Counted from the stretch's first letter, positions 7,639 through 24,558 are shown. The stretch: DNA of 64,000 bases from an uncultured Muribaculaceae bacterium (GCA_947626355.1 CANQRV010000005.1:7573-71572), one strand, 5' to 3'. Numbers and translations: made by a program. Notes: generated by a model not told the origin, from the letters alone.

Positions 7639-7656
7639 CATAACCTACATACCTAC

Positions 7657-9977: not shown

Positions 9978-10024
9978 AGATAAAAAATCTCCGGAAGCCT
10001 CGGGCCTCCGGAGATTTTTTATCT
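9978..10024. terminator. Bidirectional intrinsic terminator
   Basis: Perfect 18-bp inverted repeat agataaaaaatctccgga / tccggagattttttatct between convergent genes. Confidence 0.9.
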
Positions 10025-10037
10025 AAACGTGCGCAGA

Positions 10038-11030
10038 TCAGTCGCGTTTCAGACGGGCTGCAAGCAGCGGTACAATCTTGTTGACGTCACCCACGATGCC
10101 GAGATCGGCAACGCTGAAGATGGGGGCGAACTTGTCTTTGTTGACGGCGATGATGAAGTCGCTCTCCTCCATGCCGGCGAGGTGCTGGATGGCACCGGAA
10201 ATGCCGAGTGCGAAATAGAGGTCGGGACGAACGGTCTTACCGGTCTGGCCCACCTGGCGGGCATGCTCGATATAGCCGGCGTCGACCATGGCACGTGAGG
10301 CTGAAACCTCGGCGCCGATCGTCCCGGCGAGGTCGCGGAGCTTGTCGAAGCCAGCGGAGCCTACGCCGCGGCCGCCCGAAACGAGCACCTTGGCCTCGGT
10401 GATGTCGACGAGGTTCTTCGTCTCCTTCACACGCTCCTTCACCCTGACGCGGAACTTGGCGGGGTTGAAGTCGATCTTCACGTTCTCCACCTCACCCTTG
10501 CGCGACTCGTCGGCCGGCGACATGCGCATCACGCCAGGACGCACCGTCGACATCTGGGGGCGATGCTCCTTGCAGACGATGGTGGCCATAAGGTTGCCGC
10601 CGAAGGCGGGACGCGTCATGAGCAGATCGCGGTCGTCGGATATCTCGAGGGCCGTGCAGTCGGCGGTCAGGCCGGTGCCCACGCGGGCGGAGAGCCTCGG
10701 GCCGAGGTCGCGGCCTATAGTCGTGGCGCCGAAGAGCACGATGCTCGGCTTGCGCTCACGGATGATCTGATGGATAGCCTGCGCGTAGGGCTCCGTGGTG
10801 TAGTGCTCAAGCTCGGGAGCGTCTACATTGAGCACCACGTCGGCGCCGTGGGCGATACACTGCTGCGCGGCATCGCCCAGATTGTGGCCGAGAAGCACAG
10901 CCACCACCTTTTCGCCGAGCTTGTCGGCAAGCTCGCGGGCCTTGCCGAGAAGCTCGAAGGCAACGTTTTGCACCTTCCCGTCTCTCTGCTCGGCAAATAC
11001 ATATACGTCTTTATAATCGTTCTTGTCCAT
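10038..11030 (-). CDS. etfA: Electron transfer flavoprotein alpha subunit
   Basis: GLTADCT, RPAFGGN, QVGQTGKTVRP and GISGAIQHLAGM motifs; start at MDKNDY. Confidence 0.95.
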   Translation of the reverse strand: MDKNDYKDVYVFAEQRDGKVQNVAFELLGKARELADKLGEKVVAVLLGHNLGDAAQQCIAHGADVVLNVDAPELEHYTTEPYAQAIHQIIRERKPSIVLFGATTIGRDLGPRLSARVGTGLTADCTALEISDDRDLLMTRPAFGGNLMATIVCKEHRPQMSTVRPGVMRMSPADESRKGEVENVKIDFNPAKFRVRVKERVKETKNLVDITEAKVLVSGGRGVGSAGFDKLRDLAGTIGAEVSASRAMVDAGYIEHARQVGQTGKTVRPDLYFALGISGAIQHLAGMEESDFIIAVNKDKFAPIFSVADLGIVGDVNKIVPLLAARLKRD

Positions 11031-11043
11031 AGCTGTGTCGGCG

Positions 11044-11826
11044 TTAGATGATGAATTTTTCGCGGAGTTTGGCAAGGATGATCTCCACAGCCTCCTCGGG
11101 CTCCACCTCGTAGAGCTGGCCGGGAGCCTTCATGCCCTTGGCAAACGACTTGGCCACCCTTGTGGGGGAGCCGTTGAGACCGATTGTGGCGGGGTCGACC
11201 TCCACGCTGTCGAAGTTCCATACCTCCACGGGGCGGTCGTAGGCCTCCACGATGCCTCTCACCGACATGTAGCGGGGCTTCACGCCGGAAGCGAGGGCGG
11301 TGACGAGGGCCGGAGCGTCGACCTCGATCACCTGATAGCCGTCTTCATCGGCTTTCTTCACGGTGAATGTCTTGTCGCCGTCAAACTCGAGCGACTCGGC
11401 GTATGTCACCTGCGGAAGGTCGAGGTGCTCGGCAATCTGGGGGCCTACCTGCGCTGTGTCGCCGTCGATGGCCTGACGGCCGGTGATCACCAGGTCATAG
11501 TCGAGCTTGCGGAGGGCTGCGGCGATGGTGCGCGACGTGGCGAGGGTGTCGGCGCCGCCAAACTTACGGTCGCTGAGGAGGATGGCGCGGTCGACGCCCA
11601 TGGCGTAGGCCTCGCGGAGGATCTCCTCGGCCTGAGGGGGCCCCATGGTGATGACCGTCACATTGGCGCCGTATTTATCTTTGAGACGCAACGCGAATTC
11701 GAGACCGCCCTTGTCGTCGGGGTTCATGATGCTCGGCACGCCGTCGCGGATCAGAGTGCCTTTCACCGGGTCGAGCTTGATCTCGGTGGTGTCGGGCACC
11801 TGTTTGATACATACCACTATATTCAT
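11044..11826 (-). CDS. etfB: Electron transfer flavoprotein beta subunit
   Basis: VCIKQVPDT, GADTLATS and QAIDGDTAQVGP motifs. Confidence 0.95.
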   Translation of the reverse strand: MNIVVCIKQVPDTTEIKLDPVKGTLIRDGVPSIMNPDDKGGLEFALRLKDKYGANVTVITMGPPQAEEILREAYAMGVDRAILLSDRKFGGADTLATSRTIAAALRKLDYDLVITGRQAIDGDTAQVGPQIAEHLDLPQVTYAESLEFDGDKTFTVKKADEDGYQVIEVDAPALVTALASGVKPRYMSVRGIVEAYDRPVEVWNFDSVEVDPATIGLNGSPTRVAKSFAKGMKAPGQLYEVEPEEAVEIILAKLREKFII

Positions 11827-11847
11827 GATGTGATTGTTTTTGCTTGA

Positions 11848-12987
11848 TTATTTGAATAACTGGCCTGCGATCACCATGCGCTGCACCTCGGAGGTGCCCT
11901 CATAGATCTCTGTGATCTTGGCGTCGCGCATCATTCTCTCGACGGGATACTCGCGGGTGTAGCCGTAGCCGCCGTGATACTGCACGGCCTTTGTGGTCAT
12001 CTCCATGGCTGTCTCGGCGGCGAAGAGCTTGGCCATCGCGGCATCGGCGCTGTAGGGGACCTTGGCGTCTTCCTTCCAGGCGGCGCGGCGCACGAGCAGA
12101 CGGGAGGCCTGGATGCGGGTCTCCATGTCGGCGAGCTGGAACTGCATGTTCTGGAACTTTGCGAGGGCCCTGCCGAACTGCTTGCGCTCCTTGAGGTAGG
12201 AGACAGTCTCGTCCATGGCACCCTGGGCGATGCCGAGGGCCTGGGAGGCGATGCCGATACGGCCGCCGTCGAGGGTCCACATGGCAACCTTGAAGCCTTT
12301 GCCCTCCTGGTCGAGGAGGTTCTCGGCGGGCACGATGCAGTTTTCCATGATGAGCTCGCATGTGGCGGAGCCCCGGATACCCATCTTCTTCTCCTTCTTG
12401 CCGACGGAGAATCCCGGGAAATCCTTCTCCACGATAAAGGCGGAGATGCCCTTTGTGCCCTTGCTCTTGTCGGTCATGGCCATGATGATGTAGACACTGG
12501 CGTAACCGGCGTTGGTGATGAATATCTTGGAACCGTTGAGCACGTAGTGGTCGCCCTCCCTCACGGCAGTGGTCTGCTGTGCGGAGGCGTCGGTGCCGGC
12601 GTTGGGCTCTGTGAGGCCGAAGGCGCCGATCCACTCACCCGAAGCGAGCTTCGGAAGGTATTTCTCTTTCTGCTCCTTTGTGCCGAAATGCATGATCGGG
12701 GCCACGCAGAGCGATGTGTGGGCGGAGAGAATCACGCCGGTTGTGGCACAGACGCGCGAGAGCTCCTCTACAGCCATTGTGTAGAGCACATTATTGCCGC
12801 CGGCTCCCCCGTACTCCACAGGCACGGGAATGCCCATGAGGCCGAGCTTGGCCATCTTCTCCACCGTCTCCATCGGGAAGCGTTCCGTCTCGTCGATCTC
12901 GGCGGCCAGAGGCTTCACCTCCTTGTCGGCGAATTCCCTGATCATCTGAAGAAACAGACGGTCGGTTTTAGTCAGACTGAAATCCAT
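11848..12987 (-). CDS. bcd: Butyryl-CoA dehydrogenase
   Basis: FGLTEPNAGTDA, NGSKIFITN, RKQFG and KITEIYEGTSEVQR motifs; adjacent to etfBA. Confidence 0.93.
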   Translation of the reverse strand: MDFSLTKTDRLFLQMIREFADKEVKPLAAEIDETERFPMETVEKMAKLGLMGIPVPVEYGGAGGNNVLYTMAVEELSRVCATTGVILSAHTSLCVAPIMHFGTKEQKEKYLPKLASGEWIGAFGLTEPNAGTDASAQQTTAVREGDHYVLNGSKIFITNAGYASVYIIMAMTDKSKGTKGISAFIVEKDFPGFSVGKKEKKMGIRGSATCELIMENCIVPAENLLDQEGKGFKVAMWTLDGGRIGIASQALGIAQGAMDETVSYLKERKQFGRALAKFQNMQFQLADMETRIQASRLLVRRAAWKEDAKVPYSADAAMAKLFAAETAMEMTTKAVQYHGGYGYTREYPVERMMRDAKITEIYEGTSEVQRMVIAGQLFK

Positions 12988-13014
12988 TGAAGTGTATTGT
13001 TGTGATTGTTGTTT

Positions 13015-13863
13015 TTAGTATTTATAGAAACCCTCACCGGTCTTTCTGCCGAGAAGATTGGCGCGCACCATCTTGCGGAGCAGGGGGTGGGGACGGTATT
13101 TGTCGTCGCCGAACTCGGAATGGAGCACTTCCATGATGGCGAGGCATACGTCGAGGCCTATGAGGTCGCCGAGAGCGAGAGGCCCCATGGGATGATTGGC
13201 GCCGAGCTTCATGGCGTTGTCGATGTCGTCGCGCGAGGCCACGCCGTCGGCGAGGATGCCCACAGCCTCGTTGATCATCGGGATAAGCACGCGGTTGACT
13301 ACGAAGCCGGGGGCCTCGTTGACCTCCACAGGCACCTTGCCGATGGCGGTGCAGAGGGCCGACACGGCGTCGAAGACCTCATCCGATGTCTTCTGGCCGC
13401 GGATCACCTCCACAAGCTTCATCACGGGAGCGGGGTTGAAGAAGTGCATGCCGATCACCTTATCGGAGCGCTTGGTGGCGGCGCCGATGGCGGTGATGGA
13501 GAGCGACGAGGAGTTGGTGGCGAGCACAGCCTCGGGCTTGCAGAGGCCGTCGAGCATCGCGAAGAGCTCGAGCTTGAGGTCAAGGCTCTCGACAGCAGCC
13601 TCGATCACGAGGTCGGAGTCGGCGATGTCGGCGTAGTCGCAGGTGAGGGTGATGTTGGCGAGCACGGCGTCCATTGCGGCCTGCTCCATCTTGCCCTTCT
13701 CCACGAGGCGTGCGAGCGACTTTGTGATCTTGCCCATGGCCTTGGCGTTGGAGGCCTCGCTGCGGCTCTTCATCGTCACCTTGCGGCCGGCCTGGGCGAA
13801 GGCCTGCACGATGCCGGCACCCATAGTGCCTGTGCCTATCACTGAAATTTTCTCTATATTCAT
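13015..13863 (-). CDS. hbd: 3-hydroxybutyryl-CoA dehydrogenase
   Basis: GTGTMGAG, TNSSSLSIT, GMHFFNP, PGFVVNR and HPMGPLALGDLIGLD motifs. Confidence 0.95.
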   Translation of the reverse strand: MNIEKISVIGTGTMGAGIVQAFAQAGRKVTMKSRSEASNAKAMGKITKSLARLVEKGKMEQAAMDAVLANITLTCDYADIADSDLVIEAAVESLDLKLELFAMLDGLCKPEAVLATNSSSLSITAIGAATKRSDKVIGMHFFNPAPVMKLVEVIRGQKTSDEVFDAVSALCTAIGKVPVEVNEAPGFVVNRVLIPMINEAVGILADGVASRDDIDNAMKLGANHPMGPLALGDLIGLDVCLAIMEVLHSEFGDDKYRPHPLLRKMVRANLLGRKTGEGFYKY

Positions 13864-13871
13864 GAGTCGGA

Positions 13872-14651
13872 TTATTTATTCTTAAACATAGGTTTTCTTT
13901 TGCCGAGGAATGCCTGCATCCCCTCTTTCTGGTCGTCGGTGGCGAAGCAGTCGGAGAATGCACGGTTCTCGAAGGCGAGTGCCCCGGCCTCGTCGAGATC
14001 GTAGGAAGCGTTGATGCATTCCTTTGCCTTGCGCACGGCCACCGGGGCGTTGGCGGCTATGTCGGCGGCGAGCGCCATCACGAAGTCCATCAGCTCCTCG
14101 GGAGGAAGCACATGGTTGACCAGGCCGATCCTCAGGGCCTCGTCAGCCTTGATGACGCGGCCCGAATATATCATCTCCTTGGCGTAGCCCTGCCCCACAA
14201 GCTTCGCGAGGCGGTAGGTGCCGGAGAAGCCGGGCACGATGCCTAGCTTCACCTCGGGCTGTCCGAACTTGGCGTTGGCGGATGCCACGCGGATGTCGCA
14301 GGCCATGGCGAGCTCGCAGCCGCCGCCGAGGGCGAAGCCGTTGACAGCCGCGATCACGGGAATGGGGAGCTCCTCTATCCTGCGGAAGACAGCAGCTCCG
14401 AATCGCCCGAAGTCGAGTCCCTGCTCCGGGCTGAAGGGAGCCATCTGCGAGATGTCGGCGCCGGCCACAAACGACTTGGGGCCGGCCCCGCGCACCACCA
14501 TCACCTTCGCCTCGGCGGGGACAGCGCCAACGAAAGCGTCGAGCTCCTCGAGGATCTCGCGGCTCAGGGCGTTGAGGGTGGCCGGAGCGGAGATCTCGAG
14601 CGTCAGTATGCCTTCGGGCGAGAGCTCATGGTTGAGAAAGCGGTAGTCCAT
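13872..14651 (-). CDS. crt: Crotonase (short-chain enoyl-CoA hydratase)
   Basis: FVAGADI, GFALGGGCELAMACDIR and FGQPEVKLG motifs. Confidence 0.92.
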   Translation of the reverse strand: MDYRFLNHELSPEGILTLEISAPATLNALSREILEELDAFVGAVPAEAKVMVVRGAGPKSFVAGADISQMAPFSPEQGLDFGRFGAAVFRRIEELPIPVIAAVNGFALGGGCELAMACDIRVASANAKFGQPEVKLGIVPGFSGTYRLAKLVGQGYAKEMIYSGRVIKADEALRIGLVNHVLPPEELMDFVMALAADIAANAPVAVRKAKECINASYDLDEAGALAFENRAFSDCFATDDQKEGMQAFLGKRKPMFKNK

Positions 14652-14657
14652 GGCGTG

Positions 14658-15314
14658 TCAGCACATTTTGCCGAGGTTCTCGGCCACCTTGAGCGTAGCG
14701 CCTGTGGCTTCCTTCACCTGGTCGACAGTGAATTCGGGATTGATCTCGGCGAGCACGAGGCCGTCGGGAGTCACCTCGATGACGCCCATCTCCGTGATGA
14801 TGAGGTTGACGGCACCGGCAGCCGTGAGCGGCAGAGTACACTCTTCGAGAATCTTATGGTTGCCCTTGGCGGTGTGTTCCATTGCGAGGATCACGCGCCT
14901 GGCGCCTGCGAGGAGGTCCATAGCTCCGCCCATGCCGGGAGTCTTCTTGCCGGGGATACACCAGTTGGCGAGATTGCCTTTGGCGTCGGTCTGGAGGGCG
15001 CCGAGCACAGTGACGTCGACATGTCCGCCCCTGACATAGCCGAAAGAGGTAGCGCTGTCGAACGTGGCGGCTCCGGGGAGACCGGAAGTGAAGGCACCGC
15101 CTGCGTCGGTGTATTCGGGATCCTCCTCACCCTCGGCGGGACGGGGACCCATGCCGAGAAGTCCGTTCTCGGAGTGGATGGTGACGTGCACTCCCTCCGG
15201 AAGGTAGTTGGGAATCAGCGTCGGGAGGCCGATGCCGAGATTCACCACATAACCGTCGCGCAGCTCCTTGGCGGCACGGCGGGCGATAGTCTCTCTGATC
15301 TGCTGTTTGTCCAT
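14658..15314 (-). CDS. atoA: Butyrate:acetoacetate CoA-transferase, beta subunit
   Basis: NLGIGLPT, HSENG (catalytic Glu), RGGHVD, GNLANW and GMGGAMDL motifs. Confidence 0.92.
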   Translation of the reverse strand: MDKQQIRETIARRAAKELRDGYVVNLGIGLPTLIPNYLPEGVHVTIHSENGLLGMGPRPAEGEEDPEYTDAGGAFTSGLPGAATFDSATSFGYVRGGHVDVTVLGALQTDAKGNLANWCIPGKKTPGMGGAMDLLAGARRVILAMEHTAKGNHKILEECTLPLTAAGAVNLIITEMGVIEVTPDGLVLAEINPEFTVDQVKEATGATLKVAENLGKMC

Positions 15315-15347
15315 TATGTTTTTCAATTAGTTATTAGTTTTCAGTCA

Positions 15348-16139
15348 TCATTTGGAATGCTGGCGACGGTCGAACTCCTGCGCGATGAAGGAGGCGACGT
15401 CGTCGGCGTATGTGTTCATGCCGAAACCGGCGTCGTAGCCGAGCTCCTTTGCCAGCTCGTGGGAGATGCGCGCGCCGCCGCAGACGATAATCATCTTGTC
15501 GCGGAGGCCCTCAGCCTCAAGAAGCTCCACGAGCTCCACCATGTTGTGGATGTGTACGTCTTTCTGGGTGACTGTCTGCGACACGAGGAGGGCATCGGCG
15601 CCGAGCTCCACTGCCCTGGCGATAAACTCGTCGTTGGGCACCTGGCTGCCGAGGTTGTGGGCCTCGAACATCTCGTATCGCTCGAGTCCGTAGTGGCCGG
15701 CGAAGCCCTTCATGTTCATGATGGCGTCGATGCCTACGGTGTGGGCGTCGGTGCCGGTGCTGGCGCCGACCACCACCAGCGGGCGTCCGATGTGCTCGCG
15801 GATGAAGTCGTCGGTCTGCTGCATATCCCATTTGGTGCCCTCCACCTTGGGCACGTGGATGCCGGTGTAGTCGACGGTGTGGGTGCAGCTGCCGTAGCAG
15901 TTGAAGAAAGTGAAGCCCTCGGTGAGCTCCTTATGGTAGACGATGAGTGGATTCTCGAATCCCATCTTGCGCATCAGCTGCTTGGCCGCTTCCACGGCCT
16001 CGTCGCCTGCGGGCACAGGGAGGGTGAAGCTGACCTGGGTCTTGCCGTCGTTCATGGTGTCGCCGTAGGGCTTCACGGCTTTCAGGTCGAGCGTCTTGTC
16101 GAAATCTTTTTTCTCGGTTGAATACAGGCCTTCGCTCAT
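15348..16139 (-). CDS. kamE: Lysine 5,6-aminomutase beta subunit (B12-binding)
   Basis: PYGDTMNDGKTQVSFTLP; DAHTVGIDAIMNMKG (B12-ligating His, PLP Lys); SQTVTQK. Confidence 0.97.
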   Translation of the reverse strand: MSEGLYSTEKKDFDKTLDLKAVKPYGDTMNDGKTQVSFTLPVPAGDEAVEAAKQLMRKMGFENPLIVYHKELTEGFTFFNCYGSCTHTVDYTGIHVPKVEGTKWDMQQTDDFIREHIGRPLVVVGASTGTDAHTVGIDAIMNMKGFAGHYGLERYEMFEAHNLGSQVPNDEFIARAVELGADALLVSQTVTQKDVHIHNMVELVELLEAEGLRDKMIIVCGGARISHELAKELGYDAGFGMNTYADDVASFIAQEFDRRQHSK

Positions 16140-17698
16140 TTCTCTTCTCTGTTAAGCATTATTTCAATAAATGGATTGTAATAGCCTTCGGTCTTGGGAG
16201 CCACTCCCTCGAGGCCCTTTCCGCCGTTCTTCGGGCGCTTCACATCGGCGAAGATACCCTTCTCGAGAGCGGAGAAGAGCCCTTCGCTCTCCATCTGCTC
16301 GAGCAGGGATGTGGCCTTGGAGAGCACCTCGCGGGCGCGTGTCTGGATGATGCCGTCTTTCTTGAACTCCATCTCGTCGCCGATGCTCTTCATGTTGCCG
16401 AAGATATACTTGGCGTTCTCGATCGAGAGGTAGCGGTCGCTCATGAAGGGAGTGTGGATGGCCTCCGTGGGCATGCCGAGGAGCTGGATGCCCTGATGGG
16501 TCCAGATGCCGATCATATTGAAGAGGGCGTCCTGGATATGGCCGCGGAATATGTTTCCGGTCATGAACTTCGTGGGGGGCATGTATTTGAGGGTGGCCTT
16601 GGGGAAGATCTCGCGGATCATCTGGGCCTGGGCGAGCTCGAGGAGGAAGCCGTTCTCAAGCGAGGGATCCATCTCGAAGGCGTGTCCGAGACCCATCTGC
16701 TCCTCGGGGAGGCCTGCGAGAAGGGCGAGCTGCTCGTTGATGAGGTCGGAGGCGAGCACGGTATGTGCCTCCTCTACGGCGTCGGCCGTAGTGAGGTAGT
16801 TGTCTTCACCGGTGTTGATGATCACCCCTGCGAATCCGTTGATGACGCGGCTCATGAACTGGTCGACAAGGGTGCGCTGCATGTTGATGTCGCGGAAGAG
16901 GATACCGTAGAGGGCGTCGTTGAGCATGACGTCGAGACCCTCGAGGGCACCCATGGCTGCGATTTCCGGCATGCAGAGGCCGGAGCAGTAGTTGCAGAGG
17001 CGGATATAGCGTCCCACCTCCTCGCCTACCTCGTCGAGGGCCTTGCGCATGATGCGGAAGTTCTCCTGAGTGGCGAAAGTGCCGCCGAATCCCTCTGTGG
17101 TGGCGCCGTAGGGGACATAATCGAGGAGGCTCTGACCGGTGGTGCGGATCACGGCGATGATGTCGGCGCCCTGACGGGCAGCGGCCTGCGCCTGCACCAC
17201 GTCCTCGTAGATGTTGCCGGTGGCGACGATGACGTAGAGGTAGGGCTTGGAGCCCTCGCCTATCGTGGCGAGATAATGCTCTTTCTTGCTTCGGCGCTCG
17301 CTGATGCGCTTCACGGAAGCCTCCACATAGGGACGCAGGGCTTCGGCCACCTCTTCGGAGGAATGGCCCTCAAGGCGCGTGAGGTCGAGCTCGCCGGCTG
17401 CCACCTTCTCGGCGATGGCCTGCGGGTCGAGGCCGGTGGCTATGATGGCGTTGGCAATGAAATAGAGTATGCCGCGTCCGAGGAGGCCGTTCTCCTTGAT
17501 GTGGTTGACGAGCACATTGGGCAGTGGCACTGTGTTGTCGTCGACGCCGTCGACGCCTAAGAGGCGGCAGAGCGTGCGCTCCACAGCCACCGTGGTGTAT
17601 TGGTCGACAAACGACTGCACGTCGAGAGCGATCTTGCGGGCGACGTCTTTCGCGTGGGCGACTTTATTGAAATCGAGGCCTAATTTGCTTTCTTGCAT
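16136..17698 (-). CDS. kamD: Lysine 5,6-aminomutase alpha subunit
   Basis: TTVAVERTLCRLLG, IVATGNIYEDVVQA, NYCSGLCMPEIA and YMPPTKFMTG motifs. Confidence 0.97.
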   Translation of the reverse strand: MQESKLGLDFNKVAHAKDVARKIALDVQSFVDQYTTVAVERTLCRLLGVDGVDDNTVPLPNVLVNHIKENGLLGRGILYFIANAIIATGLDPQAIAEKVAAGELDLTRLEGHSSEEVAEALRPYVEASVKRISERRSKKEHYLATIGEGSKPYLYVIVATGNIYEDVVQAQAAARQGADIIAVIRTTGQSLLDYVPYGATTEGFGGTFATQENFRIMRKALDEVGEEVGRYIRLCNYCSGLCMPEIAAMGALEGLDVMLNDALYGILFRDINMQRTLVDQFMSRVINGFAGVIINTGEDNYLTTADAVEEAHTVLASDLINEQLALLAGLPEEQMGLGHAFEMDPSLENGFLLELAQAQMIREIFPKATLKYMPPTKFMTGNIFRGHIQDALFNMIGIWTHQGIQLLGMPTEAIHTPFMSDRYLSIENAKYIFGNMKSIGDEMEFKKDGIIQTRAREVLSKATSLLEQMESEGLFSALEKGIFADVKRPKNGGKGLEGVAPKTEGYYNPFIEIMLNREEK

Positions 17699-17705
17699 TT
17701 CTATA

Positions 17706-19103
17706 TTAAAGTTGTGATTGTTGCAGAGTTAAAAAACGGGCCGCCGAGTCGATGAGCGTCGGGTCGATGCCGAGCATGGCGGCGATGCGCAGCGCCTCGC
17801 GTGGCGCCGCTGCTGCGGAGTCTTCCTCCAGCGAGTAGTCCATGAGGAGGGGGATGTCGGCTATCGAGCCGATGCTGCCGTCGGCGGCATTGGAGAGGCC
17901 CCTGACCCTGAGGCGGCGCGAGGCATGGAGGCCGCTGTAGTGGGTGGTGACCACCGTGATGCTCGGCAGGGCGCCGAAACAGCTGATGATGGCGCCGGCG
18001 ATGGCGCGACCTTCCTCGGGATTGGTGGTGCGTCCCGGCTCGTCGATGAGCACGAGGAGGCGTCGGCCGGAGGACGCCTCCTTCAGGGCGCTGTCGATAC
18101 TCAGCATCTCGGCGGCAAACGACGATAGGCCGGTGAGCTCCGACTGGTCGTCGCCGAGACACACCCTGACCTCCTCCACCACTGTCACCGATGCCCGGGA
18201 GGCCGGCACGTAGAGGCCGAGCTGGGCGAGGGTCTGGGCCAGGGCGACGGTCTTCAGGATGACGCTCTTGCCACCCATGTTTGCGCCGGTGATCACGCAG
18301 ACGCCTTCGCCCACGGAGATGTCGATGGGCTGGAAGTCGCGTTTCCTCCTGCGCAAAACCTCCCTCACCTGCGGATTGAACAGGGCTGTATAACGTGTGT
18401 CGCCCTCATCGGCTATGCACGGGCGGCAGAGCCCCTGGGCGACGGCAAGCTTCGCGTGGGCGATGAGGAAATCAAGCTCTCCGACAGCGGCGAGAGCCTC
18501 GATGGCCACGCGAGCCAGCGGGCGCAGCCGGGCCGCGAGAGCGCATCTCACCTCGTCTTCCACGGCAGTGGCCTCCGCAAAGAGGGCGGCGCCCTCCTCG
18601 CTTCCGGCATCGCATGCGTTGATGCGGCGGCGCAGAGGGGCAAGACGCGGATCGTAGCTGTCGTAGATGAAGAAATGTGGGATTCGGGCTCCGTCCGGGT
18701 CGAGTATGGCCACCGTCGCGGTCATATCGGGTATGGCTACGGCATCGAGATCCATCTCGGCGCAGTAGCGGCTGATGTCGCCACACTGGAGGGCGAAGGT
18801 CTTGAGCTCGAAGAGCTCCGTGTCGTCGGTCACCTGCCCGGCGGCGAGGCGGCGGAGCGTGCCGCTGATGTCGTTGACACACATCAGCACGTGAAGCAGC
18901 CGGGCGAGCGGCCTGGCTGCAGCCGGATCCGACACGGCCACGACAGCCTTCCCCGCCTTGTCGAGACGCTCGGCGATGACACCGGTGTCGGCCGTCATCT
19001 CAAGGGCGTTGAGATGGGCGCGTCCTGGCGCCGACATGATCTCGAGACTGTCGGCTATATGGCGGAGGCCGGGGATTGAGGCAGTGAGCCGGGTGAATGT
19101 CAT
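17706..19103 (-). CDS. kamC: MutS-like ATPase, lysine 5,6-aminomutase reactivase component
   Basis: MutS domain V only (ITGANMGGKS, LSSFAAEM, LIDEPGRTTNPEEG, TTHY); lies directly upstream of kamD. Confidence 0.85.
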   Translation of the reverse strand: MTFTRLTASIPGLRHIADSLEIMSAPGRAHLNALEMTADTGVIAERLDKAGKAVVAVSDPAAARPLARLLHVLMCVNDISGTLRRLAAGQVTDDTELFELKTFALQCGDISRYCAEMDLDAVAIPDMTATVAILDPDGARIPHFFIYDSYDPRLAPLRRRINACDAGSEEGAALFAEATAVEDEVRCALAARLRPLARVAIEALAAVGELDFLIAHAKLAVAQGLCRPCIADEGDTRYTALFNPQVREVLRRRKRDFQPIDISVGEGVCVITGANMGGKSVILKTVALAQTLAQLGLYVPASRASVTVVEEVRVCLGDDQSELTGLSSFAAEMLSIDSALKEASSGRRLLVLIDEPGRTTNPEEGRAIAGAIISCFGALPSITVVTTHYSGLHASRRLRVRGLSNAADGSIGSIADIPLLMDYSLEEDSAAAAPREALRIAAMLGIDPTLIDSAARFLTLQQSQL

Positions 19104-20134
19104 GGCAGATTCCGGTTAAGTCTGACATCGATGGTGTCGATGCCTGTTTTTTCTTTTATTGAGTCGCAGAGTCGGCGCGAGTCGACTCGGTAGCCTGCGG
19201 GAGATGTCGGATTTACGCAGATGGCGAGCACACGGCACGGGCGTGCCACGAAGACGGCTCCTCCCTTGGAAGTGAAGGCCGTGAACGCCTCGCGCGATGC
19301 GAACATACAGGAGAAGTCGCGCATCGCGAGAGCCATGCCGTCGGTCTGCGGGAGCTGCCGGAGTGTGGCGAGAAGCCTGTCGGTGACGGCGCCGGCCACA
19401 TATAGCAGCGCTGTGTCGGTCGGAATGTCGGCCGCGGCGGAGCCGAGCGCGATTGCCGACGAAAGGCCAAGGTCATGAATGCCGCCATGGGCATCGACTG
19501 CCACCACTCCCCTCTCCACATCCTCGAGCCTTCGGGCCATCTCCGGCGGGAGCGCCGGAAGGCGCATCACCTCGCATACGAATGCCGTGCGGCGGGTGAT
19601 CTCGGGGATCGAGGGGGCGATTGCGGCGCCGGTGGCCAGCACGAGGGCGTCGGTGACGGCCGGCGAGGCGGAGCTCATGCGTGAGAGCGCGCCGTCTACG
19701 AGGGTCACGTCGGGACTGTAGGCCCCGAGGTCGGAGATGAGTCTGCGGAGCGACGCCGTGTCGGGCGGCCCGGCGAGGATCACCTTGCCGTGGGTTCTCA
19801 CCCTGGCGGTGACGAGGCGCCCGAGAGCTGTGGCCCGCGTTCCTATGCCGAGCACCTTCGAAGTGACGCCCCGGGAGCGGTAGAAACTCTCCGAGGTGAC
19901 GAATACCGTCTCCTCGAAGAGTGTTATCTCAGGCTTCCGGGTATGGCTGACGGCGTCGGTCTGCTCGCCGTCGACACCTATGGAGGTGACGGCGGGAGTC
20001 AGGCCGCGGTCGTGGAGACCCCGCAGAATGTAGTTGAGACATTCCGTCTTGCCCGCGTTCTTGGCGAGGCCGACGATCGCCACGCTGTCATAGCTGGCGA
20101 TTCTGTCGATGAGAGAAGCCTCCGGCTCAGCCAT
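19100..20134 (-). CDS. kamB: Putative lysine 5,6-aminomutase reactivase subunit
   Basis: GLAKNAGKT P-loop, TSIGVDGE and VDGALSRMSSASP motifs; position between kamA and kamC. Confidence 0.8.
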   Translation of the reverse strand: MAEPEASLIDRIASYDSVAIVGLAKNAGKTECLNYILRGLHDRGLTPAVTSIGVDGEQTDAVSHTRKPEITLFEETVFVTSESFYRSRGVTSKVLGIGTRATALGRLVTARVRTHGKVILAGPPDTASLRRLISDLGAYSPDVTLVDGALSRMSSASPAVTDALVLATGAAIAPSIPEITRRTAFVCEVMRLPALPPEMARRLEDVERGVVAVDAHGGIHDLGLSSAIALGSAAADIPTDTALLYVAGAVTDRLLATLRQLPQTDGMALAMRDFSCMFASREAFTAFTSKGGAVFVARPCRVLAICVNPTSPAGYRVDSRRLCDSIKEKTGIDTIDVRLNRNLP

Positions 20135-20145
20135 ATCGGCGTGGT

Positions 20146-21402
20146 TCAGTGTTTGTTACGCTCGTGGCGGGCAAGCTTGCTGGGCTCGAGGGAGAGCTGC
20201 TCGCCGTTGAGGAGGCTTGCGATGCCCTCCTTGTGGAGCTGCTTGCGGCGCGCCGCCTCGCATTCTGGGCAGTGACATTCCTCCTTGTAGTCGGTGGGCT
20301 CCGTGTAGGTGGTGATCACACCCTCATAGTTGCGGAGCACTACCCTTGTGGGCGACTGGGAGATGACGTAGTTGGGCATCACCGGAGTCTTGCCGCCGCC
20401 ACCGGGGGCGTCGACCACGAAAGTGGGCACGGCGTAGCCGGAAGTATGTCCGCGGAGGTTCTCCATGATCTCGATGCCTTTCGACACCGGGGTGCGGAAA
20501 TGCTCGATACCCGTCGAGAGGTCGCACTGATATATGTAGTACGGTCTCACGCGAATCTTCACGAGCTCCCTCACGAGGCGCTTCATCACATTGGTGCAGT
20601 CGTTGACCCCTCTGAGGAGCACGCTCTGGTTGCCGAGGGGCACGCCGGCGTTGGCGAGGCGCGCGCATGCGAGAGTCGACTCGGGAGTGATCTCGTTGGG
20701 ATGGTTGAAGTGGGTGTTGAGCCAGATGGGATGATACTTCGAGAGCATTGCCACGAGCTCGGGGGTGATGCGCTGCGGGAGCACCACCGGAGTGCGCGAG
20801 CCGATGCGGATGATCTCCACATGGGGAATCTCGCGGAGCTTCCTGATGATGTACTCGAGGCGCTCGTCGCTCACGAGCAGGGCGTCGCCGCCTGAGAGGA
20901 GCACGTCTCTCACCTGGGGAGTGCGGGCGATATACGCGATGGCATTGTCGATACGCTCGAGAGGCGAGGCAGCGTCGCGCTGGCCGGCAAATCTGCGGCG
21001 TGTGCAATGGCGGCAGTACATGGAGCACTGGTCGGTGATGAGGAAGAGCACCCTGTCGGGATACCTGTGGGTAAGGCCCGGCACCGGGGAGTCGCTGTCC
21101 TCGTGAAGCGGGTCGTCGAGGTCGGCGTCAGCCTTATGGAGCTCGGCGGCGGTGGGGATCGCCTGCTTGCGTATGGGGTCGTGGGGATCTGACGGATCGA
21201 TGAGGCTGAGATAGTAGGGGGTGATGGCCATGCGCAGATGCTGGAGCGCATTGCGCACGCCTTCCTCCTCCTCGGCCGTCAGCGGGAAGTATTTCTTCAG
21301 CTGATCGACCGTCTCGATGCGGTTTCTCACCTGCCACTTCCAGTCGTTCCACTGCTCGTCGGTGACGTCGGGGAAAAGCTGGTGTCTTCTGTCGGTTGCC
21401 AT
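20146..21402 (-). CDS. kamA: Lysine 2,3-aminomutase (radical SAM, PLP)
   Basis: GLTHRYPDR, CSMYCRHCTRRR, LSGGD, APGGGGKTP (PLP Lys); C-terminal CHCPEC zinc site. Confidence 0.97.
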   Translation of the reverse strand: MATDRRHQLFPDVTDEQWNDWKWQVRNRIETVDQLKKYFPLTAEEEEGVRNALQHLRMAITPYYLSLIDPSDPHDPIRKQAIPTAAELHKADADLDDPLHEDSDSPVPGLTHRYPDRVLFLITDQCSMYCRHCTRRRFAGQRDAASPLERIDNAIAYIARTPQVRDVLLSGGDALLVSDERLEYIIRKLREIPHVEIIRIGSRTPVVLPQRITPELVAMLSKYHPIWLNTHFNHPNEITPESTLACARLANAGVPLGNQSVLLRGVNDCTNVMKRLVRELVKIRVRPYYIYQCDLSTGIEHFRTPVSKGIEIMENLRGHTSGYAVPTFVVDAPGGGGKTPVMPNYVISQSPTRVVLRNYEGVITTYTEPTDYKEECHCPECEAARRKQLHKEGIASLLNGEQLSLEPSKLARHERNKH

Positions 21403-21414
21403 GTCGGGACTGAC

Positions 21415-22458
21415 TTAAGCGTAAAGGTCGGTGAAGATCTTGCGGAGTGCCTCGTTCTCACGGAGCTCCTGGAGAGTGATCTCGGCATGGCCCTTTGTGT
21501 AGCCGTTGCCCACGATCATCGTCACGTCGGAGCCTACGCCCTCTGCGCCGAGAGCGGCCTTCGTGAAGCTTGTGGCCATTGAGAAGAAGTAGACCACGCC
21601 GGTGTCTTTCGTGCAGAGGATGGAGGTCATCTCCGTGTCGGGGATGTTGACGTTGTTGATTGTGACGTCAGCCATGTGGCCGTTGGTGAGCTCTGCGATC
21701 TTGTCCATCACGGGCACGGGCTTTGTGGCGTCGGCGGAGAAGACATAGTCGCAGAAACCAAGATTCTGGAGACGCTCGGTGCTCTTCTGGCTGTGGCAGA
21801 GGCCGATCACCTTGCCTGTGACGCCTGCGCGCTTCTTGGCCTCGTAGCAGCAGAGCATACCCGACTTGCCGCCGGCTCCGATGATGAGCACTGTGTCGCC
21901 GGGCTTCACGAGCTTGGCGGTCTGTGCGGGAGCGCCTGCCACGTCGAGGGCGGAGAGGGCGAGGTTCTCGGGGAGATCGGAGGGAATCTTGGCGTAGATG
22001 CCGCTCTCGAAGAGGATGGCCTTGCCGTCGATGTCCACCTGGTCGATCTCGGGACGGATATCCTTTATCCTGTCGATGCGGAGGGGAGTGAGCGAGAGCG
22101 ATACAAGTGTCGCGATCTTGTCGCCTTCCTTAAGATCGATCTTACCCTTGAGAGCGTCGCCGATTTTCTCTACTGTGCCGAGGAGCATACCGCCGGAGCC
22201 GGTCACCGGGTTGCGGTGCTTGCCCTGCTTTGCCACGATGTCGAGCATGATGCGCGCGATCTCCTCCTTGTCGCCCTTTGCCTGCTCCTCGATCTGGGTG
22301 AAGGAGGCTGAGTCGATGTTGAGGGTCTGCACGTCGATGAGGATCTCGTTGTCGTAGATCTCGTCCATGTTGTTGTCGATCTTGTCGGCCGGCTGGGGAA
22401 GCACTCCCTTGGGCTCTATTACTCTGTGTGTTCCGTATTTATTACCTTTCTTCTGCAT
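21415..22458 (-). CDS. kdd: L-erythro-3,5-diaminohexanoate dehydrogenase
   Basis: KYGTHRVIEP, NIDSASF, NPVTGSGGMLLG, LDVAGAP and FFSMATSF motifs; start at MQKKG. Confidence 0.95.
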   Translation of the reverse strand: MQKKGNKYGTHRVIEPKGVLPQPADKIDNNMDEIYDNEILIDVQTLNIDSASFTQIEEQAKGDKEEIARIMLDIVAKQGKHRNPVTGSGGMLLGTVEKIGDALKGKIDLKEGDKIATLVSLSLTPLRIDRIKDIRPEIDQVDIDGKAILFESGIYAKIPSDLPENLALSALDVAGAPAQTAKLVKPGDTVLIIGAGGKSGMLCCYEAKKRAGVTGKVIGLCHSQKSTERLQNLGFCDYVFSADATKPVPVMDKIAELTNGHMADVTINNVNIPDTEMTSILCTKDTGVVYFFSMATSFTKAALGAEGVGSDVTMIVGNGYTKGHAEITLQELRENEALRKIFTDLYA

Positions 22459-22500
22459 GATATTAAATTTATTTTTTTGTATTTTCGATTTAAGGATGTG

Positions 22501-22525
22501 GCTCCCCCTCTTCATGGAGGGGAGC
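22501..22525. other. Intra-operon GC hairpin between kce and kdd (possible mRNA-stabilising element)
   Basis: gctcccc...ggggagc stem with no U tract on the minus strand. Confidence 0.3.
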
Positions 22526-22537
22526 CGGGATGCCGCG

Positions 22538-23365
22538 TTATCTGCGGGGAGCGAGGCCGAGTATCTCGCGGGCCTCGGCTGGAGTGGCGATCTCGCGGCC
22601 GAGCTCCCGGGCTATTCGCACCACCTTCTCCACGAGCTCGCCGTTTGACTTTGCGAGCACCCCTTTGGAGAGATAGAGGTTGTCTTCAAAACCCACCCTG
22701 ACGTTGCCGCCCATGGCTATTGCTGCGGCGGCCATCGGGAAGGCGTTGCGGCCAACGCCGGTCACGGTCCATGTGGAGCCGGCGGGTATGGCGTTGACCA
22801 GCCAGCACAGGTTGGGCACCGTGGCTGTGGTGCAGCCGGGCACGCCGAGCACGAAATTGAACTGCATGGGGGCACCGGGCACCTGTCCCTTGCGGGCCAT
22901 GTTGAGCACGGTGTCGAGGTGACCCATCTCGAAGCACTCATATTCGGGCTTGATGCCGCGCTCCATCATGCGCTTGCCGAAGTCGCGCATCATGGGCATC
23001 GTGTTCTCAAACACGTCGTCGCCGAAATTGCATGTGCCGCAGTCGAGAGTGGCCATCTCGGGGTCGAGCTCCGTGGGCTGGAGGCGCTCCTCGGCGGTCA
23101 TGCCTACGGCGCCGCCGGTGGAGGGGATGAGAATCACGTCTGGACACACCTTTAGGATGGCGTCGATACACTCCTTGAACCGGGCCTTGCTCTGGGTGGG
23201 AGTGCCGTCGTCTTCCCTCACATGGATATGCACGATGGCGGCTCCGGCGTCGACGGCCGACTTGGCCTCACGCACGATTTCCTCCACAGTGTAGGGCACA
23301 GCGGGGTTCTGCTCCTTGGTGACCTCCGCGCCGCAGATGGCGGCTGTGATGATAAGCTTCTCCAT
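22538..23365 (-). CDS. kce: 3-keto-5-aminohexanoate cleavage enzyme
   Basis: LIITAAICGAE, HIHVR (Zn), STGG, TLDCGTCNFG, PEYECF and RVGFEDN motifs. Confidence 0.96.
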   Translation of the reverse strand: MEKLIITAAICGAEVTKEQNPAVPYTVEEIVREAKSAVDAGAAIVHIHVREDDGTPTQSKARFKECIDAILKVCPDVILIPSTGGAVGMTAEERLQPTELDPEMATLDCGTCNFGDDVFENTMPMMRDFGKRMMERGIKPEYECFEMGHLDTVLNMARKGQVPGAPMQFNFVLGVPGCTTATVPNLCWLVNAIPAGSTWTVTGVGRNAFPMAAAAIAMGGNVRVGFEDNLYLSKGVLAKSNGELVEKVVRIARELGREIATPAEAREILGLAPRR

Positions 23366-23370
23366 ATCCG

Positions 23371-23757
23371 TCAGTTCTTACGCTGGTCTTCTTTCTTCAC
23401 GACACACGTGCCGCTGGCGCGGCACACCACCACAGGCTCGGGAAGCACGTCGGCTGCGGAAGCGGAGATGTCGGGGCGCGGGGCAATCACCTTGCGGGCC
23501 TCGAACACCATCTTGCGCGAGGTGTTGCCCACCTTCACGATCTCGCCGACAGCCTCGATATAGTCGCCGGCATATACGGGAGCGAGAAATTCTATATTGT
23601 CGTAGGCGCAGAAGAGACCTTCGTCGCCGTCGTGCATGATGAGCAGCTCTGTCGCCACGTCGCCGAAGAGGTGCACCATGTGGGCTCCGTCAACAAGATT
23701 ACCGCCGTAGTGTGCGTCTTTTGCGCTCATGCGCACGCGAATCATCGATTTTTCCAT
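23371..23757 (-). CDS. kal: 3-aminobutyryl-CoA ammonia-lyase (hotdog fold)
   Basis: [34 protein letters not shown] and [10 protein letters not shown] motifs. Confidence 0.95.
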
Positions 23758-23812
23758 TTGTATGCAATTATTATAATGAGCAGCCGGCCGGCAGAGGCCG
23801 GCGCGCGGAGTG

Positions 23813-24526: not shown

Positions 24527-24558
24527 CAAAATTAGTGAAAATCCCTGAATTGCACAAA
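24527..24558 (-). promoter_or_regulatory. Housekeeping promoter of the lysine fermentation operon
   Basis: Minus-strand TTTG (24558-24555), 20-nt spacer, TAATTTTG (24534-24527). Confidence 0.8.

What the first reader, a model, noticed from the sequence alone, without database searches (positions are those of the whole stretch)
11848..15314. No thiolase but crt+hbd present: lysine pathway could run as a two-butyrate electron sink
Seen: thiolase, pta/ack and ptb/buk are absent from the operon, while hbd and crt are retained. Known: Kce consumes acetyl-CoA and releases acetoacetate; classically thiolase splits acetoacetyl-CoA to regenerate acetyl-CoA. Inference: acetoacetyl-CoA is instead reduced via Hbd/Crt/Bcd, and AtoDA swaps CoA onto acetate. 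Net reaction: lysine + acetate + 2 NADH equivalents gives 2 butyrate + 2 NH3. Kce plus CoA-transferase would stand in for thiolase, coupling sugar-derived NADH to bifurcating Bcd-EtfAB.
Basis: inference. Interest (0 to 1): 0.65.

Follow-up and report, generated by a model that had tools for sequence, protein, structure and literature searches.

The report
Thiolase-free lysine-to-butyrate operon, known type
A gut-type Bacteroidales genome carries a 15-gene lysine-fermentation operon with hbd and crt but no thiolase anywhere, so lysine probably yields two butyrates and soaks up surplus reducing power; this idea was published from genomes in 2014 and has not been tested at the bench as far as I could find.

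Summary
Window 10038-24460 (minus strand) is one predicted transcription unit: atoD-kal-kce-kdd-kamA-kamB-kamC-kamD-kamE-atoA-crt-hbd-bcd-etfB-etfA. It contains no thiolase, pta/ack or ptb/buk. The 99.9%-complete genome has no thiolase at all. It does have pta-ackA, PFOR, Rnf and two further CoA-transferases elsewhere, one of them above the cut-off of the P. gingivalis PGN_1341 butyryl-CoA:acetate model.

In related Bacteroidota operons the slot between atoA and bcd holds either crt-hbd or thl. All 23 other genomes with crt-hbd at the operon lack thiolase genome-wide, while thl-type operons carry their own. This supports reduction of acetoacetyl-CoA to a second butyrate, with a net reaction of lysine + acetate + 4[H] -> 2 butyrate + 2 NH3.

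Two corrections apply. Vital et al. 2014 (mBio) already proposed exactly this for Porphyromonadaceae. AtoDA also need not use acetate: dedicated transferases exist, and deleting the P. gingivalis PcaJ-type B-subunit gene PGN_1171 (likely atoA counterpart) left butyryl-CoA:acetate activity unchanged.

None of 24 congeners has kce or hbd, so missing thiolase is the lineage background. Low novelty; no biochemical test was found in the searched library.

The parts
24527..24534 (-). Bacteroidetes-type -7 promoter box TAATTTTG, 67 bp upstream of atoD
   Evidence: The motif is enriched in the window (21 found, 7.2 expected). It is the only copy on the minus strand upstream of the operon.
23813..24460 (-). 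atoD: class I 3-oxoacid CoA-transferase, subunit A
   Evidence: TIGR02429 239.1 bits (cut-off 128.5); PRK09920 acetate CoA-transferase alpha 293.8 bits (below its cut-off of 315).
23371..23823 (-). [quoted passage not shown]
   Evidence: NF052388 196.5 bits (cut-off 160). Start judged from the translation.
22538..23365 (-). [quoted passage not shown]
   Evidence: NF052387 435 bits (cut-off 382). Single copy in the genome.
21415..22515 (-). kdd: L-erythro-3,5-diaminohexanoate dehydrogenase
   Evidence: NF052381 280.4 bits (cut-off 200).
20146..21402 (-). kamA: lysine 2,3-aminomutase
   Evidence: TIGR03820 637.4 bits (cut-off 525.4).
19100..20134 (-). kamB: lysine 5,6-aminomutase reactivase subunit
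   Evidence: NF052386 302.4 bits (cut-off 210).
17706..19103 (-). kamC: reactivase ATPase (MutS-like)
   Evidence: NF052383 407.3 bits (cut-off 300).
16136..17698 (-). kamD: lysine 5,6-aminomutase alpha
   Evidence: NF052384 932.3 bits (cut-off 600).
15348..16139 (-). kamE: lysine 5,6-aminomutase beta (B12-binding)
   Evidence: NF052385 405.9 bits (cut-off 280).
14658..15314 (-). atoA: class I 3-oxoacid CoA-transferase, subunit B, with the catalytic Glu in SENG
   Evidence: TIGR02428 300.7 bits (cut-off 243.55).: best solved relative is 8k9h, 'butyrate-acetoacetate CoA-transferase subunit B'.: SENG motif.
13872..14651 (-). crt: crotonase (short-chain enoyl-CoA hydratase)
   Evidence: PRK05809 326.1 bits is the best match but is below its cut-off of 394.: both catalytic Glu present (GGGCE113, PE133).
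13015..13863 (-). hbd: 3-hydroxybutyryl-CoA dehydrogenase, the only 3HCDH_N gene in the genome
   Evidence: PRK05808 440.5 bits (cut-off 408).: single match in G000.: GTGTMG, NSSS and HFFNP motifs.
11848..12987 (-). bcd: butyryl-CoA dehydrogenase
   Evidence: full-length acyl-CoA dehydrogenase; best match is the Clostridium AcrC type at 539 bits, below its cut-off.: catalytic Glu in YEGTSEVQ. It lies next to etfBA.
11044..11826 (-). etfB: electron-transfer flavoprotein beta, with the DGDTAQVGP motif
   Evidence: NF040731 354 bits (below its cut-off of 445).: motif at residue 121. That this motif marks bifurcating Etfs is my recollection of the literature, not a tool result.
10038..11030 (-). 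etfA: electron-transfer flavoprotein alpha (likely start at the ATG at 11030)
   Evidence: full-length EtfA matches. Start judged from the translation.
9979..10023 (-). Intrinsic terminator: 20-bp stem followed by a T run, 15 nt after the etfA stop

Best explanation
This is a self-contained 'reductive' variant of the lysine (3,5-diaminohexanoate) fermentation operon.

Shown by sequence: all pathway enzymes are encoded in one unit, and the genome has no thiolase.

Inferred pathway:
1. KamA, KamDE and Kdd turn lysine into 3-keto-5-aminohexanoate, releasing one NH3 and one NADH.
2. Kce joins its C1-C2 fragment to the acetyl group of acetyl-CoA. This gives acetoacetate and 3-aminobutyryl-CoA.
3. 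Kal releases the second NH3 and yields crotonyl-CoA.
4. Bcd-EtfAB reduces crotonyl-CoA to butyryl-CoA no. 1.
5. The operon's two-subunit CoA-transferase passes that CoA to acetoacetate, releasing butyrate no. 1 and forming acetoacetyl-CoA.
6. No thiolase exists to split acetoacetyl-CoA. Hbd, Crt and Bcd-EtfAB therefore reduce it to butyryl-CoA no. 2.
7. That CoA goes to acetate, most likely through the separate PGN_1341-type and/or PGN_0725-like transferases. AtoDA may contribute as a side activity. This regenerates the acetyl-CoA that Kce needs. Acetyl-CoA can also come from pyruvate through PFOR, with any surplus going through Pta-AckA to ATP.

Net reaction: lysine + acetate + 4[H] -> 2 butyrate + 2 NH3. 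With a sugar donor this becomes glucose + 2 lysine + 2 H2O -> 4 butyrate + 2 CO2 + 4 NH3.

Lysine is thus an electron acceptor that needs a co-substrate. Energy comes from two Bcd-Etf turnovers per lysine feeding Rnf. The ATP that the classical pathway makes directly from lysine by substrate-level phosphorylation is not made here.
For: - All lysine-pathway genes pass the curated NCBIfam cut-offs.
- The 15 genes form one predicted transcription unit.
- No thiolase is found by Pfam, tblastn or a custom HMM in a 99.9%-complete genome.
- hbd is the only 3HCDH_N gene in the genome and sits in the operon.
- Catalytic motifs of Crt, Hbd, AtoA and Bcd are intact.
- Among the classifiable operons of 80 KamD-anchored loci, the slot between atoA and bcd holds crt-hbd in 17 loci plus this window, or thl in 11. 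In 6 more loci crt-hbd lies just beside the operon.
- 0 of 23 other crt-hbd-type genomes have a thiolase. These include the isolates Porphyromonas endodontalis ATCC 35406 and P. somerae DSM 23386. All 11 thl-type genomes have one, and in 8 of them it is the only one.
- 5 of 11 thl-type genomes have no Hbd at all.
- Outlets and partners exist in the own genome: a protein above the PGN_1341 model's cut-off (796.7 bits, cut-off 740), a 4HB-CoA-transferase/PGN_0725-like protein, pta-ackA, RnfC and PFOR.
- The same inference is published: PMC3994512 and PMC5715108.
Against: - There is no biochemical, isotope or expression evidence for this organism or, in the library searched, for any thiolase-free Bacteroidales.
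- Thiolase is rare in Bacteroidales anyway: true thiolases appear in 5 of 16 sampled sister families and in 0 of 25 genomes of the own genus. The 23/23 absence is therefore partly background, and the genomes are not phylogenetically independent.
- The C39 transferase also passes the succinate CoA-transferase subfamily cut-off. In P. gingivalis, PGN_1341 is a weak butyryl-CoA:acetate enzyme whose primary role is unknown.
- Crt and Bcd score below their best models' cut-offs, so family membership is clear but exact specificity is not.
- Two operons have neither crt-hbd nor thl in the operon. One of their genomes (the MAG behind L050, completeness unknown) also lacks both genome-wide, so acetoacetate may have another fate.
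Confidence: 0.7

Rival explanations
1. One butyrate plus a C4 by-product. Butyryl-CoA gives its CoA to acetate, and the acetoacetate is excreted, reduced to 3-hydroxybutyrate or decarboxylated. The net reaction is lysine + acetate -> butyrate + acetoacetate + 2 NH3, which is redox-neutral. Hbd and Crt would work only as an overflow valve when extra reductant is available, so butyrate per lysine would float between 1 and 2.
For: - This reaction balances without any external reductant, unlike the two-butyrate route (my own count).
- Acetate-accepting transferases are present.
- Some related operons carry neither crt-hbd nor thl, and the genome behind L050 lacks both genome-wide.
Against: - crt-hbd is kept inside the operon, or right beside it, in 24 of the 37 classifiable operons, the window included. 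These genes are the genome's only hbd and its only crotonase at this score level.
- The operon keeps an acetoacetate-activating 3-oxoacid CoA-transferase, which would be pointless if acetoacetate were waste.
- No acetoacetate decarboxylase was found.
Confidence: 0.15
2. Classical thiolytic pathway after all. A thiolase lies in an assembly gap, or a non-orthologous enzyme such as a FabF/FabH-like condensing enzyme splits acetoacetyl-CoA. The products would then be butyrate + acetate + ATP.
For: - The assembly has 148 contigs.
- pta-ackA is present.
- Weak Thiolase_N similarity (about 27 bits) exists in three condensing-enzyme frames.
Against: - Genome completeness is 99.89%.
- All 23 other genomes with the same operon type also lack thiolase, including isolate genomes.
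- Operons that use thiolysis carry thl in the very slot that crt-hbd occupies here.
- The weak hits have the lengths of FabF and FabH (408, 422 and 335 aa), and I read them as fatty-acid-synthesis enzymes.
Confidence: 0.05
3. The link between the operon and the thiolase-free genome is an artefact or has no function. Contig C5 may be mis-binned from another organism, or the operon may be a silent, recently acquired island.
For: - 0 of 24 same-genus genomes carry kce or hbd.
- The operon's GC is 61.6% against a genome mean of 55.9%.
- Kce is 88% identical to that of a genome from another family.
Against: - C5's GC (59.2%) lies inside the main contig range of 54-62%.
- The operon's GC3 (about 0.80-0.83) matches its C5 neighbours and falls in the genome's upper quartiles.
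- Its tetranucleotide distance to the genome mean is at the 89th percentile, so it is not an outlier.
- All 15 frames are intact with their catalytic motifs.
- Even if the contig were mis-binned, operons of this type sit in thiolase-free genomes everywhere else.
Confidence: 0.05
4. Hbd and Crt run in the oxidative direction. Crotonyl-CoA from Kal would be hydrated and oxidised to acetoacetyl-CoA, yielding NADH, and acetoacetate would be the main product.
For: Both enzymes are reversible (general biochemistry, not a tool result).
Against: - Without thiolase the oxidative branch is a dead end: it gives no ATP and worsens the redox balance, since Kdd already produces NADH.
- bcd-etfBA follows directly in the same transcript.
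- Rnf is present, which fits reductive, ferredoxin-generating use.
Confidence: 0.03

Closest known systems
Bacteroidetes lysine pathway co-located with a partial acetyl-CoA pathway (hbd, cro) and no Thl: Porphyromonadaceae, Vital et al. 2014, mBio (PMC3994512)
   Same: - Same gene set.
- hbd and crt sit at the lysine operon, and thiolase is undetectable genome-wide.
- The terminal transferase for the second butyryl-CoA is encoded elsewhere.
- The same proposed logic applies: acetoacetyl-CoA from lysine enters at step 2 of the acetyl-CoA pathway and gives extra Bcd-Etf energy.
   Different: - Here crt-hbd lies between atoA and bcd. In the Porphyromonas loci it follows etfA (L055, L069, L074).
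- The host here appears saccharolytic: glycoside-hydrolase genes flank the operon.
- It is the only one of 25 sampled congeners with the operon.
Classical lysine fermentation of Fusobacterium nucleatum and Clostridium SB4/sticklandii (Barker; Kreimeyer et al. 2007) and Intestinimonas AF211 (Bui et al. 2015, PMC4697335)
   Same: KamA, KamDE, Kdd, Kce, Kal, Bcd-Etf and a butyryl-CoA:acetoacetate CoA-transferase. In Intestinimonas the AtoD-A activity was measured and was lysine-induced.
   Different: - Those organisms have thiolase. In Intestinimonas it sits next to atoDA and is more abundant on lysine.
- They produce butyrate + acetate + ATP.
- All 8 Firmicutes genomes checked here have thiolase.
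- Gene order differs: in the Intestinimonas/Oscillospiraceae-type loci it is kamB-kamC-kal-kce-kdd-kamA-kamD-kamE, followed by atoD-atoA in several of them.
thl-type lysine operons of other Bacteroidota (Ancylomarina, Labilibaculum, MAGs from varied sources)
   Same: The backbone is identical: atoD-kal-kce-kdd-kamABCDE-atoA-[slot]-bcd-etfBA (L033, L036, L041).
   Different: The slot holds thl instead of crt-hbd. In 8 of 11 such genomes that thl is the only thiolase, and 5 of 11 have no Hbd.
[quoted passage not shown] 2016, PMC4949257)
   Same: - The own genome encodes a 500-aa protein above the PGN_1341 model's cut-off.
- It also encodes a 433-aa protein of the 4-hydroxybutyrate-CoA-transferase family, matching the entries 3eh7 and 3d3u (339-347 bits), which I recall as P. 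gingivalis proteins.
   Different: - Substrate specificity here is untested.
- The 500-aa protein also fits the succinate CoA-transferase subfamily.
- No 4-hydroxybutyrate pathway genes were recognised next to the 433-aa gene, judged by eye from the ORFs.

Membership tests
Lysine (3,5-diaminohexanoate) fermentation pathway | KamA, KamD/E, Kdd, Kce and Kal are all present | tested here: met
   Each passes its NCBIfam cut-off: 637/525, 932/600, 406/280, 280/200, 435/382 and 196.5/160 bits. The reactivase KamB/KamC is also present.
Lysine (3,5-diaminohexanoate) fermentation pathway | Butyryl-CoA:acetoacetate CoA-transferase (two-subunit, class I) | tested here: met
   Subunit A TIGR02429 239 bits (cut-off 128.5); subunit B TIGR02428 300.7 bits (cut-off 243.6); SENG catalytic Glu; best solved relative 8k9h. 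Actual substrate use was not assayed.
Classical (thiolytic) version of the lysine pathway | Thiolase that splits acetoacetyl-CoA into 2 acetyl-CoA | tested here: not met
   No true thiolase in the genome by Pfam PF00108, tblastn or a custom HMM.
Classical (thiolytic) version of the lysine pathway | Pta and Ack for ATP from acetyl-CoA | tested here: met
   pta (TIGR00651, 366 bits, cut-off 311) and ackA (TIGR00016, 517 bits, cut-off 293) are adjacent on C17, outside the operon.
Thl-less lysine + hbd/cro operon of Bacteroidetes (Vital 2014) | hbd and crt are co-located with the lysine genes | tested here: met
   hbd is at 13015-13863 and crt at 13872-14651, between atoA and bcd in one predicted transcript.
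Thl-less lysine + hbd/cro operon of Bacteroidetes (Vital 2014) | Thiolase undetectable in the genome | tested here: met
   The same holds in 23 of 23 related genomes with this operon type.
Thl-less lysine + hbd/cro operon of Bacteroidetes (Vital 2014) | Acetoacetyl-CoA from lysine is actually reduced to a second butyrate | not testable with these tools
   This needs isotope tracing or enzyme assays. No such experiment was found in the library.
Electron-bifurcating Bcd-EtfAB | bcd adjacent to etfB-etfA, and EtfB with the second-FAD motif | tested here: met
   The gene order is bcd-etfB-etfA. DGDTAQVGP is at EtfB residue 121. The motif's meaning is recalled from the literature on bifurcating Etfs, not tested here.
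Electron-bifurcating Bcd-EtfAB | A ferredoxin-oxidising partner (Rnf) in the genome | tested here: met
   RnfC TIGR01945 497.6 bits (cut-off 246) on C14.
Butyryl-CoA:acetate CoA-transferase (PGN_1341 type) | Scores above the curated equivalog cut-off | tested here: inconclusive
   NF053666 796.7 bits (cut-off 740), but TIGR03458 succinate CoA-transferase 724.5 bits (cut-off 658.7) is also passed. Specificity remains open.

The most novel reading that the evidence does not exclude
The crt-hbd versus thl choice in one operon slot may define two physiologically different lysine fermentations in Bacteroidota. The thiolytic form is self-sufficient and yields ATP; it includes the marine isolates Ancylomarina and Labilibaculum. 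The reductive form depends on a co-substrate and appears in gut, rumen and oral lineages. There lysine would act as a Stickland-like electron acceptor, give two butyrates, and need acetyl-CoA and reductant from sugars or other amino acids. If so, gut butyrate yield per lysine from Bacteroidales is underestimated two-fold, and lysine use by these bacteria should depend on co-substrates.
Probability: 0.45. Interest if true: 0.5.

Novelty: new member of a known kind. Interest (0 to 1): 0.3.

Why it matters
Lysine-derived butyrate is one of the few butyrate routes attributed to gut Bacteroidales. If the thiolase-free operon type makes two butyrates per lysine and consumes four reducing equivalents, three things follow:
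- Metagenomic butyrate budgets that assume the classical products of one butyrate plus one acetate are off for these taxa.
- Lysine becomes an electron sink that competes with fumarate reduction.
- Lysine breakdown should require a co-substrate.

The concept dates from 2014, but I found no experimental test of it in the searched library. The slot swap (thl or crt-hbd) offers a clean genetic handle for such a test.

Tried and rejected
- Empty-site test in congeners using the flanking Ca2+/Na+ antiporter: homologues are only 44-58% identical and sit on unrelated contigs.
- Compositional test for recent transfer or mis-binning: operon GC, GC3 and tetranucleotide distance all fall within the genome's normal spread. 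They give no support for recent transfer and no exclusion of older transfer.
This is only a weak negative.
- A 4-hydroxybutyrate pathway context for the 433-aa transferase on C30: by eye the neighbours look unrelated (UvrA-like and indolepyruvate-oxidoreductase-like frames). The idea was dropped.
- Organism name: records near the own genome are withheld. The best KamD relatives are rumen and hindgut Bacteroidales MAGs at up to 82% identity. I therefore do not name a genus.

Full report
**What is in the window**

The minus strand from 24460 down to 10038 carries fifteen contiguous genes in the order atoD, kal, kce, kdd, kamA, kamB, kamC, kamD, kamE, atoA, crt, hbd, bcd, etfB, etfA.
- All lysine-specific enzymes pass NCBIfam's curated cut-offs. 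So do Hbd (440.5 bits, cut-off 408) and both CoA-transferase subunits.
- Crt and Bcd are full-length best matches to short-chain enoyl-CoA hydratase and to a clostridial acyl-CoA dehydrogenase. They score below those models' cut-offs.
- A Bacteroidetes-type TAATTTTG box lies 67 bp upstream of atoD. A 20-bp-stem terminator follows etfA by 15 nt. The genes therefore most likely form one transcript.
- Catalytic motifs are intact: Crt GGGCE113 and PE133, Hbd GTGTMG/NSSS/HFFNP, AtoA SENG, Bcd YEGTSEVQ and EtfB DGDTAQVGP.
- The finding's coordinates (11848-15314) are exactly bcd, hbd, crt and atoA.

**The observation, checked genome-wide**

The window is contig C5 of a 3.09-Mb assembly in 148 contigs, rated 99.89% complete.
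- Thiolase: Pfam Thiolase_N finds only hits of about 27 bits or less, in frames of FabF/FabH size. tblastn and an HMM built from five genuine Bacteroidales thiolases find nothing better than E about 1e-6. The genome has no thiolase.
- pta and ackA exist, adjacent on C17. The only other PTA_PTB domain lies in an 805-aa frame that I read as NADP-malic enzyme. There is one acetate-kinase-family gene, so there is no ptb/buk.
- hbd is the only 3HCDH_N gene in the genome. kce, kal, kdd, kamA, atoD and atoA are single-copy.

**Surroundings that decide the mechanism**

- The genome encodes PFOR (1927 bits) and RnfC (498 bits).
- It also has two CoA-transferases outside the operon.
  - One is a 500-aa protein on C39. 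It scores 796.7 bits against NCBIfam's model for P. gingivalis PGN_1341 butyryl-CoA:acetate CoA-transferase (cut-off 740). It also passes the succinate CoA-transferase subfamily cut-off.
  - The other is a 433-aa protein on C30 of the 4-hydroxybutyrate-CoA-transferase family. It matches the entries 3eh7 and 3d3u, which I recall as P. gingivalis proteins.
- Sato et al. [quoted passage not shown] They also showed that deleting PGN_1171, a 220-aa PcaJ-like B subunit, did not lower that activity (PMC4949257). I take PGN_1171 to be the counterpart of the atoA here.
A ping-pong class I transferase could still do it, and that remains untested.

**Comparative evidence**

Eighty loci around KamD relatives were fetched with 10-kb flanks, and 36 could be classified.

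| Operon type | Count | Notes |
|---|---|---|
| crt-hbd in the slot between atoA and bcd | 17 loci plus this window | same backbone atoD...atoA-[slot]-bcd-etfBA |
| thl in or just after that slot | 11 loci | includes Ancylomarina and Labilibaculum isolates |
| crt-hbd just beside the operon | 6 loci | after etfA in Porphyromonas; upstream and divergent in Egerieousia-like MAGs |
| neither crt-hbd nor thl in the operon | 2 loci | L034, L050 |

- Genome-wide, 0 of 23 other crt-hbd-type genomes have a thiolase. These include P. endodontalis ATCC 35406 and P. somerae DSM 23386.
- All 11 thl-type genomes have a thiolase, and in 8 of them it is the only one. All 8 Firmicutes lysine fermenters checked also have one.
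- Five of the 11 thl-type genomes have no Hbd at all.
- The operon thus always brings its own way of handling acetoacetyl-CoA, either cleavage or reduction.
- On a KamD tree the two types are clustered, but they switched several times. One supported sister pair is L043/L048 (crt-hbd) against L044/L053 (thl).
- Judging from record titles only, crt-hbd types come mostly from rumen, hindgut, human-gut and oral sources. thl types include the marine isolates Ancylomarina and Labilibaculum and MAGs of varied origin. This is an impression, not a test.

**A caveat on 'no thiolase'**

- All 24 sampled genomes of the same genus lack thiolase. They also lack kce and hbd. The missing thiolase is therefore the background state of the lineage.
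- Thiolase is uncommon in Bacteroidales in general, with true thiolases in 5 of 16 sampled sister families.
- The operon is patchily distributed. Kce is 88% identical in a genome of another family, where only atoD-kal-kce-kdd sit together.
- Composition gives no sign of recent import or mis-binning. The operon's GC is 61.6% and contig C5's is 59.2%, within a contig range of 54-62%. GC3 is about 0.8, like neighbouring genes. The tetranucleotide distance is at the 89th percentile.

**Most likely mechanism (inferred)**

1. Lysine is converted by KamA, KamDE and Kdd to 3-keto-5-aminohexanoate, giving one NH3 and one NADH.
2. Kce uses acetyl-CoA to produce acetoacetate and 3-aminobutyryl-CoA.
3. 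Kal releases the second NH3 and forms crotonyl-CoA.
4. Bcd-Etf reduces crotonyl-CoA to butyryl-CoA.
5. AtoDA transfers the CoA to acetoacetate, giving butyrate and acetoacetyl-CoA.
6. Hbd, Crt and Bcd-Etf reduce acetoacetyl-CoA to a second butyryl-CoA.
7. A CoA transfer to acetate releases the second butyrate and regenerates acetyl-CoA.

The net reaction is lysine + acetate + 4[H] -> 2 butyrate + 2 NH3 (C8H22N2O4 on both sides, my count). With sugar as the donor it becomes glucose + 2 lysine + 2 H2O -> 4 butyrate + 2 CO2 + 4 NH3. Energy would come from two reduced ferredoxins per lysine passing through Rnf, and from Pta-AckA acting on acetyl-CoA that is spared. The roles of Kce, Kal, AtoDA and bifurcating Bcd-Etf follow established biochemistry of these families; they were not measured here.

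The main rival is redox-neutral excretion of acetoacetate, with Hbd/Crt acting as an overflow valve, so that butyrate per lysine lies between 1 and 2. A hidden thiolase, mis-binning, and oxidative use of Hbd/Crt are all unlikely.

**Comparison with what is known**

- Vital et al. 2014 wrote that in Porphyromonas the acetyl-CoA pathway genes are co-located with the lysine operon. They noted that acetoacetyl-CoA from lysine can enter at the second step, that Thl could accordingly not be detected, that this raises energy gain through Bcd-Etf, and that the final enzyme must come from other pathways (PMC3994512).
- Vital et al. 2017 dropped thl as a criterion for the same reason, and listed Alistipes as having only the lysine route (PMC5715108).
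- Bui et al. 2015 showed experimentally, in thiolase-containing Intestinimonas, that the lysine and acetyl-CoA routes are linked at acetoacetyl-CoA (PMC4697335).
- I found no isotope or enzyme study of a thiolase-free Bacteroidales in the library.

**Verdict**

The AtoDA-acetate detail is unsupported. The new elements here are modest: the thl/crt-hbd swap in one slot, its perfect match to genome-wide thiolase content, and the operon's absence from 24 congeners. Interest is low to moderate. The hypothesis is easy to test and, as far as I could find, still untested.

Noticed in passing
L014 10001-13068 (also L016, L018, L024, L032): In a clade of rumen and hindgut Bacteroidales MAGs, kamD-kamE-atoA stands alone as a three-gene unit. 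No kamA, kdd, kce or bcd lies within 10 kb. The pathway seems to be split over several loci, or only partly present.
   Followed up: partly
L107 (G026:C4) 15557-18526: A genome of another family has only atoD-kal-kce-kdd together, at 84-88% identity to the window for kal, kce and kdd. kamA-etfA is not adjacent. This genome has neither thiolase nor Hbd. It may be a salvage module for 3,5-diaminohexanoate or beta-lysine made by other organisms.
   Followed up: partly
L050 and L034: Two full operons have neither crt-hbd nor thl between atoA and bcd. The genome behind L050 (a MAG, Candidatus Merdivivens) shows no thiolase and no Hbd anywhere. The genome behind L034 has both elsewhere. The fate of acetoacetate in the L050 type is unexplained.
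   Followed up: partly
own genome, whole (G000) versus G001-G024: None of 24 same-genus genomes has kce or hbd. The 15-gene operon is specific to this species within the sampled genus, yet it is compositionally native-like.
   Followed up: partly
own genome contig C37 (28433 bases): Its GC is 37.4% against a genome mean of 55.9%. It could be a mobile element or a binning contaminant.
   Followed up: no
own genome C1:104961-108667: A second etfB-etfA pair lies next to an unusually long (about 698 aa) acyl-CoA dehydrogenase-like frame. Its function was not examined.
   Followed up: no
window 6142-9966: Two glycoside-hydrolase-like genes lie directly downstream of the operon on the other strand. 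One resembles endo-1,6-beta-glucanase and the other is a 769-aa protein with a weak BglB match. The host therefore looks saccharolytic.
   Followed up: no
L035 versus L037: The 'Candidatus Egerieisoma' record is filed under Clostridiaceae/Bacillota in the taxonomy shown. Its KamD is nearly identical to that of a Rikenellaceae MAG and nests inside Bacteroidota. The label is probably wrong.
   Followed up: no
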